Shown one piece after another: positions 46,689-54,098 of a stretch of DNA of 64,000 nucleotides. The notes under the pieces are model-generated. The model was not told the origin of the DNA and searched no databases. It was given only the letters and a program-made list of their open reading frames with translations. Position 1 is the stretch's first letter; each line of letters begins with the position of its first letter. Source of the DNA: Schizochytrium sp. TIO01 (taxonomy: Eukaryota; Protista; Bigyra: Labyrinthulomycetes); the NCBI GenBank assembly GCA_004764695.1, contig SMSO01000033.1, positions 2,790,001 through 2,854,000 of the forward strand. Direction: 5' to 3'. Position numbers and translations under genes: made by a program.

Positions 46689-47152
46689 CGTGCAGGCAAC
46701 AAAGCCCTCGCGCGATGCGGGTTTGCGATCATGATGATCCAGCCAGCGTCATCGTACACGTCCTCTTTTCGATTCCTGCTACAATTATCTAGGACTTGAT
46801 CTAGTCAAACTGTTACGTGGTATAAGCTAGAACCTCTAGTCTTACTCGAGCCATGTAATGACAACCAAAAGCACCAAAACGCATGTCAAGTCGGTCATCT
46901 CTACCTAAGCTTGGCTACACCGTCTTGTGAGCTGCTCAGTTTGAGAGCACCTGGAAACTGCAAAAGAAGAGATGGCCCTTGGAATTGAGTGCACAACTCT
47001 GTGTGCTTGATAATAGTACGTACCTACGAAGAGAGCATGTATATACCAACTCGAGGGTCAGTGTTTGCGGACTGGGAAAGGATAACATTGAGGTTCTTGA
47101 ATCCAAAACCGCAAGAGGTTCGTGAAAGAAAGGGTTGGCTGATAGGTCCACG

Positions 47153-48224
47153 ATGATGGCGTGGAAAAGCTTGGCGAGGCGCCGGACTGTGGGCCACGTT
47201 GGTCGTCGAGGGCTTGCAATAATTGCGGCAAGTGCTCGTGTGCATCCGACTGCAGTGATTGTGGAGAACGATGAAGGCACTGTTCAGATAGGCGCCAATA
47301 CGGACATTGGGCCACACGTTGTCCTAGGACCTGACGTAAGTCTGGGTGAAGACTGCAAGCTGGGCGCTGGTATTGTCATGCAAAACACGAGCGTTGGGGA
47401 CCGCTGCGTGTTTCACCCAGGAAGCTGCTTTGGTCAGGACGGCTTTGGATTCCATATTGCGTCAGCAGAAAGCGCTGACCATGCGAAGAAACCACAGACG
47501 CTTCGTGTAGTGGTTGGTAACGACGTAGAGATTGGGTACGTTTTGTTTATGCAAAGTGTGAGAATATGAGAGACTTGGCCCTTTCACGTGTGGAGAATAT
47601 TGAGTAGAAAGATGTGCCAAGATAGATGTCATTGTTTTCAACGTTTTGTATTGTTTTATATGTGTCTGGAATTGAAAACTAATCATGTTATTGCGAGCAA
47701 CTACAGGGCAAATTGTACAGTTGATCGGGGAAGCTGGCGCGACACAACGATAAGCGATGGCACAAAAATGGATAATTTGGTACGTTGTGGTAGTCTTCAC
47801 AAATGTTGAAAACAGAATTGAGATGAACTGACAAAAAGAAGAGTTAAATTGGTTTATATTTTCATGGAATCGAGGGATACAATAGATCCAAGTTGGGCAC
47901 AATGTGCAAATTGGGTCACGTTGCCTTATCGCGGCGCAAGTGGGTATTGCAGGCAGCACAACAATAGGAAACTTTGTTTTGATCGGGGGTCAGGCGGGGA
48001 TTGCGCAACATCTGCAGATAGGAAATGGTGTCCAAATTGCTGCAAAGAGTGGTGTTATGACAGATTTAAAGGATTACAGTAAAGTTGGGGGAGTCCCCGC
48101 AGTTCCCATCAGACAGTTTCACAAACAGTCAATTATACTGCGAAGGCTGGTCGACACGATGGGGTCCACAAATACAGGTAGCACAGCTGCGTCAAATGAT
48201 GGTGAAGAAGCAAAGGGCAAATAA
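47153..48224 (+). CDS. lpxD: UDP-3-O-acyl-glucosamine N-acyltransferase LpxD; 3 exons: 47153-47535, 47707-47779, 47886-48224
   Basis: Hexapeptide repeats and GQDGFGF. Removing two GTACGT..AG introns restores [18 protein letters not shown] and [15 protein letters not shown], followed by AQVGIAGST and GGQAG. Confidence 0.9.
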
Positions 48225-50260: not shown

Positions 50261-50868
50261 GGTGCAGGAAACGAGAAATCTGCCGCGAGACCTTCAAACG
50301 TGACTGCTAGCCTGCCGCGAGGCTGTCTGCTGCTGGCTTCCGGTTGCCACAGAGAGAGCGAGAGAGGGGAGAGGGCACGAGAGCAGAAATACGCCCTGAG
50401 AGGCGCACTCACGAGCAGCGGCGCTTAGGGTGCTCTGCGCTGCTGGCAAAGCAACGGGAATGGTCTCTCCAAAACGCCTGACCGTCTCATTCACTCATTT
50501 TATCCCTCTTCTTATCATCATCTTCATTTGTAGGTGCCCCTATTACTGACCATCATTATTGTCTCCTACGCATTACCATATTTCATGGTACTACATATAT
50601 ATAAATATATATATATCCTGAGGTGTATGACGATAGCGATAGCTACTACTAGTAGTAGTAGCATAAGATAGTTACTACAACTACTACTACTACCACCACC
50701 ACCTAACTAGGTACTACCTAACCTAGCAGTAGTTAGCAGTGATGGTATGCGATCGTATGACAAAAAACGTAAAAGTTCGATAACTTATATTTCGATGTGC
50801 TTGTTTCATATTAATCATATATTATACTTAGTTAGATCTTTAATAAGAAGTGGAGGTTAGGTAAGAAA

Positions 50869-51567
50869 ATGGGGAGGCCAAGGAACCGCCAAGCTCCAAA
50901 CACTGCAAGTGGAGCAAACCTCGAATACAAACCAGCAAAGTTCTTTCACCGGAAGTTTGGGATCTCAGCAAGCGCCCTTCGGGGCTGGGCCGATGGCGGA
51001 CGCGTGCGCTGCGCGCGCTTCCCCGGAGGCAAGCGCATCTACGCCTGCGACGATGTTGAGCGCATCTTTGATTGCGGTTCCACCGGCCGCGAGCAACGCA
51101 GCTCTGGATGTACCGTTATCTACGCCAGAGTGTCCTCGGCCAAGCAAAAGGAGGACCTCGAACGCCAGGTTGGCGATCTCCAGCGCGCCTACCCAGATGC
51201 TTCCGCCGTCTACAAAGACATCGGTAGCGGGGTCAATTTCAAACGCCAAGGCCTGTGCTCCCTACTGGACGCCTGTGACCGCGGCGGAATCGGCCAAGTT
51301 GTGGTCATGCACCGCGACCGACTTGCGCGAATCGCAGTCGACCTCCTGGAACACCTTTTCGAAAGAAAAAATGTCAAAATCGTGGTACACGGCCAAGATG
51401 CACATGCCGGAGACTCAGACACCTTCACCAAAGACCTCCTCGGAATTATCACCGTCTTTGTGGCATCGCATCACGGAAAACGAGCAGCGCAAAATAGACG
51501 GCGACGACGCAGCGAGGAAGAAGCGAGCTCGCACGAAGGCGCGCAAGACCACCAAGAAAGAATATGA
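50869..51567 (+). CDS. tnpA: IS607-family serine recombinase/transposase TnpA
   Basis: N-terminal MerR-like HTH (FGISASALRGWADGGRV...PGGKRIY), catalytic YARVSS, DLERQ, DIGSG, DRLAR and DLLGIITVFVASHHGKR. Confidence 0.93.
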   Translation: MGRPRNRQAPNTASGANLEYKPAKFFHRKFGISASALRGWADGGRVRCARFPGGKRIYACDDVERIFDCGSTGREQRSSGCTVIYARVSSAKQKEDLERQVGDLQRAYPDASAVYKDIGSGVNFKRQGLCSLLDACDRGGIGQVVVMHRDRLARIAVDLLEHLFERKNVKIVVHGQDAHAGDSDTFTKDLLGIITVFVASHHGKRAAQNRRRRRSEEEASSHEGAQDHQERI

Positions 51568-52849
51568 CCTTGTCCGTGCCAGAAAGGTTAGGGTATACCC
51601 TACTAAAGATCAGCGTACACAGTTGCTCAAATGGTTTGGTGTCACTAGAAGAGCCTACAATACTGGCGTTGCGTTTCACCGAGACGTGGCGAAGGGCGAG
51701 GAAGAAGCCATCAAATTGCATCAAGAAGCGTGCATCAAAAAGGATTCCAAGACGAAGCAGGTTTTAGTAGATGGAGATGGGAATCCCCAAACGTATGGTG
51801 CCCTCTATGGAGAAAAGAAAGCCGTTCGATCTAAAGAAAGGCATGATGCTCCTGAATGGGTTCTCGAGGTCCCACAGGCTATCCGTGATTCCGGGATTCT
51901 GGATTTCTTCAAGGCTCTTAACTCTGGACGAGCCAAAAACGAAGAACTCGCTGTACAAAAGAAAGTTCATGAGCAATCTTTTTATAAGTTTCGGACCAAG
52001 CGTGATGAATCACAGATTTTCGAAGTGAACGCACGTATCTGGAATACGGAGAAATCAAAGACCACCAGCTTTCTAAAAAAGTTTCGTACGCACAAAGAAA
52101 AGTTCCCCAGTCAGATTAAGAACGCCATGCGTGTGCAAATGAATCGCCTTGGGCATGTGTACTTCTGCTTCTTACGAGAAGAAGAAAAGCGTCCAATGGA
52201 CCAGGCACCCAAGGCGCACCACAGTGTCATTGCTCTAGATCCAGGTGTTCGCTCGTTTCAGACGATGTATGATGCCGATGGCCGCGCCATTGAATGGGGC
52301 ACAGGGAAAGATTTTAGAACCATATTCTATCTCTGTCGCCGCGTTGATAAGATCCAAAGCAGGATTGATAAAGCTCAAGAAAATAAAAAGAAAACTGCAT
52401 ACGATTTCAACACCCCCTTGAAGCGCGCCTTCTATCGCGCCCAACTCAAGATCAAGAACAAGATCACTGAGATTCACCGCAAGCTCGCGCTTTGGCTTTG
52501 TGAAAACTATCGTGTTATTCTCTTGCCTAAATTCGAAACCTCTAAGATGAGCAGGAGGATGGAGCGACGGATATCCAAGAAGTCTGTTCGAATGATGTGT
52601 CGTTGGTCCCATTTTGGGTTCCGCCAAGCTCTCATTCATAAGGCTGAGATGTTCCCGTGGTGCAAGCTTGTTCTTTGCCAAGAGAGCTACACTTCAAAAA
52701 CATGCAATGAGTGCGGTACCCTCCACCATAAACTCGGGGCATCCAAGGTTTTCCAATGCCCTAATCCCAAGTGCAACCATGTAGCAGACCGTGATGTCCA
52801 TGCCGCAAGAGGCATCCTTTTACGCTACCTATCCAAGGACATGATTTAA
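50993..52849 (+). CDS. Fanzor2 / TnpB-family RNA-guided endonuclease (start uncertain; frame open from 50861, first ATG 50993)
   Basis: TnpB N-terminal motif (KVRVYPTKDQ...WFGVTRRAYN), RuvC-I ALDPGVRSF, relocated Glu in QESYTSKTC, zinc finger CNEC..CPNPKC and RuvC-III DRDVHAARGI. Confidence 0.92.
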   Translation: MADACAARASPEASASTPATMLSASLIAVPPAASNAALDVPLSTPECPRPSKRRTSNARLAISSAPTQMLPPSTKTSVAGSISNAKACAPYWTPVTAAESAKLWSCTATDLRESQSTSWNTFSKEKMSKSWYTAKMHMPETQTPSPKTSSELSPSLWHRITENEQRKIDGDDAARKKRARTKARKTTKKEYDLVRARKVRVYPTKDQRTQLLKWFGVTRRAYNTGVAFHRDVAKGEEEAIKLHQEACIKKDSKTKQVLVDGDGNPQTYGALYGEKKAVRSKERHDAPEWVLEVPQAIRDSGILDFFKALNSGRAKNEELAVQKKVHEQSFYKFRTKRDESQIFEVNARIWNTEKSKTTSFLKKFRTHKEKFPSQIKNAMRVQMNRLGHVYFCFLREEEKRPMDQAPKAHHSVIALDPGVRSFQTMYDADGRAIEWGTGKDFRTIFYLCRRVDKIQSRIDKAQENKKKTAYDFNTPLKRAFYRAQLKIKNKITEIHRKLALWLCENYRVILLPKFETSKMSRRMERRISKKSVRMMCRWSHFGFRQALIHKAEMFPWCKLVLCQESYTSKTCNECGTLHHKLGASKVFQCPNPKCNHVADRDVHAARGILLRYLSKDMI

Positions 52850-52856
52850 AAAAAAT

Positions 52857-52978
52857 CATTTCATTGAGTCGCGGGCTAGTCTAACTAGCTCGTGATGGAG
52901 TCTTAGCTCCTTCTATGAAATGCAAGTTTTGCAAATTTTGTAGTTTAACATCTAAGAGAAGCGCCGCGACCTTTGCAA
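52857..52978 (+). ncRNA. Putative omegaRNA (scaffold about 52857-52957 plus flank-derived guide)
   Basis: Complementarity found by eye: 52857-64 with 52915-22; 52868-79 with 52885-96; 52897-900 with 52907-10; loop TCTTAG (52901-06) with CTAAGA (52952-57). The position directly after the nuclease ORF matches TnpB/Fanzor loci. Confidence 0.7.
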
Positions 52979-54098
52979 GTAACCCCACAGCACCGATGCT
53001 CAAGGGTAGTTTTGCATGAGGAGGGGGGGGGTAATGAAGAAGTTGAAGTGCGCTCATATAAAAAAGTTTATTGCTTCAAGTTGGATAAAAACATCAAGCC
53101 AAAACAAGCTCTGCTTCTTTACTGGGAAATGCGCCAGAGGTGCCCAGGGACTCTCTGGAGAGTGAGTAGTAGCCTGAGGTATTGCTTTGGATTTTAGACA
53201 CGAGCCTGGGTCTCTCATGTGACTGCTATCACGAGTTGCGTTAGTTTTGTAAAACGATTTGAATGCAAGCTGGCCCTATTGAATGTCCTCAAAAGGTCTC
53301 TTTGAGAGGTACCTCTAGAGGCAGTTTGGTTGTGGACGCAATCCGCGATTGTTTTGGCGTGAAACCCAAAGACTTTAGCCGATGACCTCTGACTAAATGT
53401 AAGCTAGTTGTGTGTTTTCATAGATCAAGCCACATTTATTCAAGGAGGCATGCGTTTTAACCAACTATTACTATTAGGTGTGGTTTGGAAAATCATGCAT
53501 GAACACGGATTAAGCACAACTTTCTGACTTTGATTACCAAACTTCACAAGAGGGGCAGGCAATGTCGCATTGCACACCATGTGCAATTCAATATCAAGAG
53601 GCGAGCTCAGCTCATCAAGCATGCCGTTGTTCGGAAAACACAGCATTGTTTCCTGTACATATAAACAATTTTTCATTGCATCATGTTGTTAGTTGAGGGA
53701 AGCTAGGCTATGTTAGGACTGTATAATAGGTTATCGAATTCAATCTCTTTGGTTGAAGTAGAACGGCTATCGGACAACAGAAACAAGCTATGCAGAAATG
53801 TATGAGCCATCCCGCAGATTGCGTGAAAAACATTCATTGCCACATGTAGGAATCGAAATGTTTTTCTCAACAACTTAACTGGCCCCTTCCACCGTGCAAT
53901 ATGGTTTTGAGTGATAGAATCGTACTATGGTAGGTAGGTAAAAGAGTTGACAATTTGATTTGGCGACTTTTTCTCTTTTTCTTTCTTAAAAAAATAAATA
54001 AATTAAAAGATGAAGAAGAACGATGAAGAAGGACAGAGATAAGAGAAGTGATCTCAGCAACCTAGCCTGCGCAAATTAAGACAGACCGCGATCTGCTG

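What the first reader, a model, noticed from the sequence alone, without database searches (positions are those of the whole stretch)
52857..52978. omegaRNA-like three-way junction with a pseudoknot that predicts the element end and guide
Seen: CATTTCAT (52857-64) pairs with ATGAAATG (52915-22). This encloses a 12-bp hairpin with G-U pairs (52868-79/52885-96) and a GGAG/CTCC hairpin. The loop of that hairpin, TCTTAG (52901-06), is the exact reverse complement of CTAAGA (52952-57). A weaker hairpin lies at about 52929-52943. Known: TnpB/Fanzor omegaRNAs end in a pseudoknot directly before a guide read from flanking DNA. Inference: the scaffold ends at about 52956-58 and the native guide is roughly (AG)AAGCGCCGCGACCTTTGC.
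Basis: partly seen in the sequence, partly recalled or inferred. Interest (0 to 1): 0.8.

Follow-up and report, generated by a model that had tools for sequence, protein, structure and literature searches.

The report
Compact Fanzor2 guide RNA, thraustochytrid transposon
This stretch is the right end of a multicopy IS607-type jumping gene in a marine protist and likely serves as the unusually short guide-RNA scaffold of the Fanzor2 DNA-cutting enzyme encoded just before it, a well-supported new example of an already published design.

Summary
All listed base pairs are at the stated coordinates. The stretch follows an intact Fanzor2 gene and an IS607 serine transposase; a neighbouring gene is 72% like Hondaea's, so the host is likely a thraustochytrid. 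The end prediction holds: contig depth collapses after 52958 in 4 of 4 runs, and two runs carry an empty site that resumes at 52957. The pseudoknot is supported by covariation: in 7 of 9 related elements with copy-defined ends, a hairpin loop complements the five bases before the terminal dinucleotide (null 2.5). The two hairpins keep their pairing in variant copies. The enclosing helix that makes the 'three-way junction' is probably wrong: it vanishes when upstream sequence is folded and a subfamily lacks its 5' arm. Guide likely starts at 52959, after an AG core (published IS607 rule). The scaffold core is the shortest of 22 compared (62 nt). No small-RNA or cleavage data. New member of a known kind; interest 0.3.

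The parts
50754..50868 (+). Left end of the IS607 element; junction dinucleotide CG at 50754-55, then the conserved left-end sequence
   Evidence: single-copy contig of X1 ends at 50790 and depth rises about 40-fold from the bin starting 50762; loose ends of other copies before 50770 match the window from 50755 on and have AG at the junction; empty-site contigs match the left flank to about 50754 (+/-1, from the from_end column)
50869..51567 (+). TnpA, IS607 serine transposase, 232 aa, catalytic-serine motif at codon 51133
   Evidence: NF033518 transpos_IS607 144.9 bits, cutoff 110; PF00239; motif position
50993..52849 (+). Fanzor2/TnpB nuclease, likely 618 aa (frame open from 50909), its N-terminal ~190 codons overlapping tnpA in another frame; DPG at 52238, alternative Glu at 52682, zinc finger 52703-52774, third Asp at 52793
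   Evidence: a 617-aa transcriptome protein (P0121) starts at the same Met; best PDB match ApmFz2 9b0l, E 2e-18
52857..52922 (+).
   Evidence: (table 7)
52868..52896 (+). 12-bp hairpin (P2) directly 5' of the pseudoknot hairpin
   Evidence: Pair probability 0.7-1.0 in six of seven folding frames; a variant copy changes 4 of its 12 pairs and all stay canonical; a hairpin at this position is predicted in most relatives
52897..52910 (+). Pseudoknot hairpin (P3); loop 52901-06, invariant core 52902-06
   Evidence: Pair probability 0.88-1.0 in all frames; variant copies change the stem (GAG/CTC to GGG/CCC) but keep the CTTAG loop (table 7)
52921..52948 (+). TGCA motif, weak hairpin 52929-43 and TTTAA; also holds two short repeats that may be transposase binding sites
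   Evidence: Same order of motifs in relatives; left-end/right-end inverted likeness only suggestive (109 of 2000 shuffles)
52952..52957 (+). 3' strand of the pseudoknot (5-bp core 52952-56; sixth pair 52901-52957 likely)
52957..52958 (+). Right junction (core) dinucleotide AG; end of element and predicted end of scaffold
   Evidence: depth drop after 52958 in 4 of 4 runs; loose ends behind 52956 (consensus begins TG) and 52958; empty-site contigs start at 52957
52959..52979 (+). Predicted native guide, read from single-copy host flank
   Evidence: Single-copy depth from 52965; start inferred from the published IS607 rule; an RNA-like run has one contig spanning 52849-53237 (X9)

Best explanation
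52868-52958 is the right end of a 2.2-kb multicopy IS607 element (serine transposase plus Fanzor2) and likely serves as the omegaRNA scaffold of its Fanzor2, with a pseudoknot between the loop at 52902-06 and 52952-56 and a predicted guide starting at 52959. Shown: element anatomy, both ends to within a base or two, tens of copies, presence/absence of this insertion between strains, covarying hairpins and pseudoknot. Inferred from characterised relatives: read-through transcript is trimmed to a small RNA; the scaffold ends with the AG core; Fanzor2 loaded with it cuts the empty allele next to a short TAM ending in AG (the element's own end is spared); repair from the occupied allele keeps the element after TnpA excises it as a circle. 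The RNA is a row of hairpins plus the pseudoknot, not the three-way junction proposed.
For: Anatomy. End: depth X1 15,933 (52953-58) to 2,064 (52959-64) to 388; X3 1,623/278/58; X7 819/112/29; X4 492/54/0-12. Empty site in X3 and X7 resumes at 52957; X1 and RNA-like X9 carry the filled site. Pseudoknot: 7 of 9 copy-defined ends in relatives, null 2.45+/-1.21, 9 of 10,000 permutations, slid controls 0-3; 14 of 37 clusters vs 2.6+/-1.5, 0 of 5,000; 17 of 39 vs 4.3+/-1.8, 0 of 10,000. Among 22 kept examples each pseudoknot position shows 2-4 different canonical pairs; the sixth pair, unused in selection, is Watson-Crick in 15 of 22 vs 9.8+/-1.9. Published: pseudoknot required in ISXfa1 and right-flank base part of scaffold (PMC10711439); pseudoknot in ApmFz2 structure (PMC11832414); scaffold ends with the core dinucleotide (bioRxiv 2023.11.20.567912).
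Against: No small-RNA or cleavage data; all runs were contigs and X9 is only guessed to be RNA. Ends are not uniform: loose ends also lie behind 52955 and 52960. More than half of the relative clusters gave no pseudoknot hit (22 of 39; 23 of 37), partly through mis-called ends; motif rules were written after seeing the tails and relatedness was not corrected. Inside this genome no compensatory change in the pseudoknot was seen, only invariance. The two junctions differ (CG left, AG right) and neither is the canonical GG. The protein scores 95.9 bits against a 100-bit cutoff for NF040570.
Confidence: 0.85

Rival explanations
1. As the best reading, but the RNA starts at about 52850-57 and does fold into the first reader's three-way junction, closed by 52857-64/52915-22.
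For: It is the minimum-energy fold when the RNA starts at 52850 (pair probability 0.55-1.0); the majority of near copies keep both arms (depth).
Against: Probability 0.00-0.07 with 50 or more upstream bases; a subfamily (9, 7 and 8 contigs in X1, X3, X7) has another sequence over the 5' arm; one divergent copy has 52920 A>C with no partner change listed; by eye 1 of 21 relatives shows such a helix; it would bury the conserved TG of TGCA; in ApmFz2 the pseudoknot loop lies about 13 nt from the scaffold's 5' end.
Confidence: 0.2
2. The conserved right end acts only at DNA level (transposase binding repeats and recombination core); the RNA structure is a leftover and this copy's Fanzor2 is not guided by it.
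For: IS607 ends carry short repeats and an imperfect inverted repeat (PMC6188088); a weak left/right likeness exists here; a C. reinhardtii Fanzor bound its RNA but did not cut (PMC10530073 passage); no RNA evidence of the small form.
Against: DNA binding does not explain G-U-tolerant hairpin changes or loop-to-end covariation across relatives only 30-60% alike in protein; catalytic residues are intact.
Confidence: 0.1
3. The scaffold ends at 52956 and the guide includes the AG.
For: The commonest loose-end position is behind 52956 (4-6 contigs per run) and the empty site resumes at 52957, so the AG is present in the target.
Against: All 22 kept examples end in NG after the five paired bases and N often pairs with the loop; in ISXfa1 and CboIStron the flanking G belongs to the scaffold.
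Confidence: 0.1

Closest known systems
ApmFz2 (Acanthamoeba polyphaga mimivirus Fanzor2) with its omegaRNA in an IS607 element, PDB 9B0L (PMC11832414 section 9 and passages read; PMC10530073 passages read)
   Same: IS607 TnpA plus Fanzor2; DPG/alternative-Glu active site; RNA from the right end; pseudoknot between a 5' hairpin loop and the last scaffold bases; best PDB match.
   Different: Scaffold 205 nt there, 62 nt from pseudoknot hairpin to end here (about 90 nt with P2); GG core and GGG TAM there, AG/TG/CG junctions here; in ApmFz2 the knot reaches position 0, here the terminal G is unpaired; nuclear protist genome, tens of copies.
ISXfa1 IS607 TnpB reRNA (PMC10711439, part 1 of Results and passages read)
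   Same: Three or so stem-loops plus a five-base pseudoknot beside the guide; right-flank base predicted to be scaffold.
   Different: Bacterial TnpB, GG core, about 150-nt RNA; here a eukaryotic Fanzor2 with variable first core base.
CboIStron IS607 TnpA/TnpB (bioRxiv 10.1101/2023.11.20.567912, passages read)
   Same: Scaffold ends with the core dinucleotide; TAM equals the insertion motif; non-matching left and right dinucleotides arise when the donor core is altered.
   Different: No group I intron here (no Rfam family match); strict GG target there.
NlovFz2 and MmeFz2 (PMC10432273, passages read)
   Same: Fanzor2 nucleases with non-GGG TAMs (CCG, TAG), matching the CG and AG ends common in this clade.
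   Different: MmeFz2 sits in a TIR/TSD element (PMC10711439), not IS607; relatedness to this protein was not tested.

Membership tests
IS607 element | Serine-recombinase TnpA of the IS607 family | tested here: met
   NF033518 above cutoff; PF00239
IS607 element | No terminal inverted repeats and no target-site duplication | tested here: met
   No terminal inverted pair among the 25 longest of 55 shown; flanks of the empty site join with no repeat beyond the core
IS607 element | Recombination over a shared dinucleotide, typically GG | tested here: inconclusive
   Invariant G with variable first base: AG right, CG left, TG and AG in other copies; CG 15, AG 4, TG 3 in 22 examples. Left junction of the empty site known only to +/-1 base
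IS607 element | Short repeats inside both ends, imperfect inverted repeat | tested here: inconclusive
   Score reached by 14 of 2000 random pairs but 109 of 2000 shuffles
Fanzor2 | RuvC-I DPG motif | tested here: met
   Codon 52238; definition from PMC10711439
Fanzor2 | Alternative catalytic Glu about six residues before the zinc finger; third Asp after it | tested here: met
   Glu at 52682, six residues between it and the first Cys at 52703; Asp at 52793
Fanzor2 | Eukaryotic (or eukaryotic-virus) location | tested here: met
   Flanked by RWD-RING and Got1/Sft2 genes; nearby gene 72% like Hondaea fermentalgiana; single contigs join flank and element end
Fanzor2 | Placement in the Fanzor2 clade on a tree | not tested
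   No tree built; IS607 context and best PDB hit ApmFz2 point to it
TnpB/Fanzor2 omegaRNA | Lies at the element's right end, guide from flanking DNA | tested here: met
TnpB/Fanzor2 omegaRNA | Pseudoknot of a hairpin loop with the last scaffold bases | tested here: met
   (comparative, not biochemical)
TnpB/Fanzor2 omegaRNA | Made as a discrete small RNA bound by the nuclease | not testable with these tools
   Only contigs on offer; read-through contig in an RNA-like run
TnpB/Fanzor2 omegaRNA | Directs TAM-dependent DNA cleavage | not testable with these tools
   Needs an assay

The most novel reading that the evidence does not exclude
An active, strain-polymorphic thraustochytrid IS607-Fanzor2 works with a naturally minimal omegaRNA (a 62-nt core, a third of ApmFz2's) and a transposase that needs only the second G of the core, so natural copies carry non-matching CG/AG/TG junctions while the nuclease reads a short AG-ending TAM: a ready-made compact Fanzor2 editor, and a native system in a transformable protist for testing whether Fanzor2 maintains its transposon.
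Probability: 0.35. Interest if true: 0.5.

Novelty: new member of a known kind. Interest (0 to 1): 0.3.

Why it matters
The design (IS607 + Fanzor2 + right-end RNA with pseudoknot) is published, so this is no new principle. Its value is practical: both ends, an empty allele in other strains, the guide and a candidate TAM can be read from sequence; the scaffold is the shortest of 22 compared; and the insertion is present in some strains and absent in others, which would allow a direct test of Fanzor2's role in a eukaryote that carries it natively. I found no description of such an element in thraustochytrids: 'Fanzor'+'Aurantiochytrium' gave one listed paper on another organism, 'thraustochytrid'+'IS607' none, none of the 20 listed of 513 papers held 'TnpB', and five host names were absent from the supplements held for three Fanzor papers (one scanned PDF not searchable; tables may list accessions without organism names; bioRxiv supplements are closed and subscription papers are not searched).

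Tried and rejected
No own-genome assembly is held, so copies were seen only as contig pieces. Rfam: no relevant family, one chance miRNA hit at E 0.85 upstream. Single-protein scan of viral contigs found nothing. No second copy in the window. Pairing of 52868-74 with 52965-71 (seen), which would pull the guide region into the scaffold: pair probability 0.00-0.01 and the partner is single-copy flank; rejected. A stricter regex anchoring mis-anchored many loci and found both motifs in only 16 of 46 clusters (7 of 16 matched vs 1.7); kept only as a weak repeat. One search crashed and was rerun; there 1 of 10 copy pairs (L009/L011) gave no shared end and was left out; by eye it has no loop complement, so 7 of 10 is the cautious count. 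Of 29 automatic hits (L026, L043, L045, L060, L063, L064, L077) were dropped by eye as mis-anchored; those counts are conditional on a match. Left-end comparison among relatives gave only one informative pair (L017/L074, starting CG), too little for a TAM. Cluster look-up gave no organism names. A second three-way junction (TG before P3 with CA of TGCA) was considered; not established.

Full report
Observation. The region folds better than shuffles (z -3.55; 3 of 500). A six-base loop complement somewhere downstream is not rare by itself (36 of 500 shuffles), so the pseudoknot needed outside evidence.

Context. The stretch starts 8 bases after the stop of a long ORF (50909-52849) that matches TnpB domains and is overlapped at its 5' end by an IS607 serine transposase (50869-51567; NF033518 144.9 bits against a cutoff of 110). 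The nuclease likely starts at 50993 (618 aa), where a 617-aa transcriptome relative also starts. It has the Fanzor fingerprints defined in PMC10711439: DPG, the alternative Glu just before the zinc finger, and the third Asp. Its best solved relative is ApmFz2. The neighbours are eukaryotic genes, one of them 72% identical to a Hondaea fermentalgiana protein, the best named hit of 12; the host is therefore likely a thraustochytrid.

The element end. No assembly is held, but 22 of 24 listed public runs hold the stretch or part of it. Laying five of them shows a multicopy element from about 50755 to 52958; summed contig depth is no copy number, but it is tens of times the flank. At the right end the depth in X1 falls from 15,933 (52953-58) to 2,064 (52959-64) to 388, and likewise in X3, X7 and X4. 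Other copies leave the window's sequence behind 52956 (4-6 contigs per run, consensus starting TG) or behind 52958; fewer behind 52955 and 52960. X3 and X7 each have a contig with both flanks and no element; it resumes at 52957 in both calls, and its left match ends at about 50754 (my arithmetic from the from_end column, +/-1). X1 and the RNA-like run X9 carry the filled site, so the insertion is polymorphic. The pattern is five paired bases, then a variable base and an invariant G: AG here, TG in some copies, CG at this copy's left junction and AG at others' left junctions. That is an IS607 core dinucleotide, though not the usual GG (PMC6188088 passages); non-matching left and right cores were seen experimentally with altered donors (bioRxiv 2023.11.20.567912 passages). 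Whether this copy lost one base at the left junction or inserted with mismatched cores cannot be told.

The pseudoknot. An alignment of the window protein with the first 20 of 981 homologues fetched 80 of 177 metagenome loci and 4 viral loci; 83 had the C-terminus, 78 tails including the window were long enough, forming 46 clusters. Where two copies of a relative define the end by their differing flanks, 7 of 9 have a hairpin loop complementary to the five bases before the terminal NG (partner-shuffled 2.45+/-1.21; 9 of 10,000; slid controls 0-3); a tenth pair dropped out and looks like a miss. With motif-called ends the counts are 14 of 37 against 2.6 and 17 of 39 against 4.3; the misses include wrongly called ends. 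These rules were written after viewing the tails and do not correct for relatedness. In 22 examples kept by eye from 29, each position shows several canonical pair types (e.g. position 4: A-U 10, C-G 7, G-C 3, U-A 1, G-U 1). Within the host's own copies the loop core CTTAG is kept while the stem changes to GGG/CCC and 52901 varies, and a variant changes 4 of the 12 pairs of the long hairpin with none broken.

The three-way junction. The outer helix is favoured only if the RNA starts near 52850; with 50 or more upstream bases its probability is 0.00-0.07, while the two hairpins stay at 0.8-1.0. A subfamily seen in three runs has a different sequence over its 5' arm, and relatives fold as a row: long hairpin, three-base link, pseudoknot hairpin, small hairpin, TGCA, last hairpin, TTTAA, pseudoknot strand, NG (by eye 1 of 21 has an enclosing helix at that place; expected enclosing pairs scatter from 0.6 to 9.3). 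In ApmFz2 the pseudoknot loop is near the scaffold's 5' end (PMC11832414 section 9), so the mature RNA may not even include the 5' arm.

Mechanism. Shown: anatomy, ends, copy polymorphism, comparative support for hairpins and pseudoknot, one RNA-like contig running from the stop through the flank to 53237 while nearby intergenic bins are empty in that run (RNA status is a guess). Inferred from ISXfa1, CboIStron and ApmFz2: the transcript is trimmed to an omegaRNA whose scaffold ends at 52958; the guide is the flank from 52959; Fanzor2 cuts the empty site beside a TAM that equals the insertion motif, here probably ending in AG (only one empty site and a few left junctions support this); break repair from the filled allele retains the element.

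Novelty. The design is published. What is particular: a thraustochytrid host for which my searches found no report (with the limits given above), a scaffold core of 62 nt against 70-163 in 21 relatives and 205 nt in ApmFz2, and variable NG cores. Earlier scan notes on other genomes reached similar verdicts; they are unchecked and not used as support; none matched this place or sequence. Papers: PMC10711439 outline, part 1 of 3 of Results, passages, supplement search; PMC11832414 section 9 and passages; PMC6188088, PMC10432273, PMC10530073 and the bioRxiv preprint passages (supplement searches for the two Fanzor papers); all others search listings only. The labels P2, P3 are mine.

Verdict. Observation confirmed; interpretation right on identity, pseudoknot and end, wrong or doubtful on the junction; new member of a known kind; interest 0.3.

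Noticed in passing
window 50993-51567: The Fanzor2 frame overlaps tnpA by about 190 codons; homologues of 600-700 aa keep a conserved N-terminal extension over the same overlap, so the region is doubly coding.
   Followed up: partly
window 52972 (runs X3, X7; X4 breaks at 52971): The empty alleles carry a 5-base insertion 14 bases into the predicted target. Could be an ordinary flank polymorphism (the region has other indels) or a repair scar that blocks cutting.
   Followed up: no
window 52913-52960: More diverged subfamilies in the host share only the last ~45 bases; one keeps a GGG/CCC stem with the CTTAG loop (table 7). Joints skipping 1.2-1.6 kb inside the element suggest deleted or divergent derivatives (table 5).
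   Followed up: no
window 52876: The window has C where essentially all other copies have T; it turns a U-G pair into C-G in the long hairpin.
   Followed up: partly
window 52366-52403: Most other copies differ here by an insertion/deletion (15 bases out, about 12 in) in the nuclease gene, matching the indel against P0001.
   Followed up: no
L003-L081 3' tails: A clade-wide omegaRNA layout with a TGCA motif and a TTTAA motif before the pseudoknot strand is visible across 21 relatives; Rfam has no family matching the window's copy, so a covariance model could be built.
   Followed up: partly
window 50590-50740: Low-complexity TA and TAC/TAG repeat tract just left of the insertion, with a 29-base length difference between strains.
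   Followed up: no
window 47135-48224: ORF pieces resembling an LpxD-like hexapeptide-repeat acyltransferase (name recalled, from the translation), apparently split by introns.
   Followed up: no
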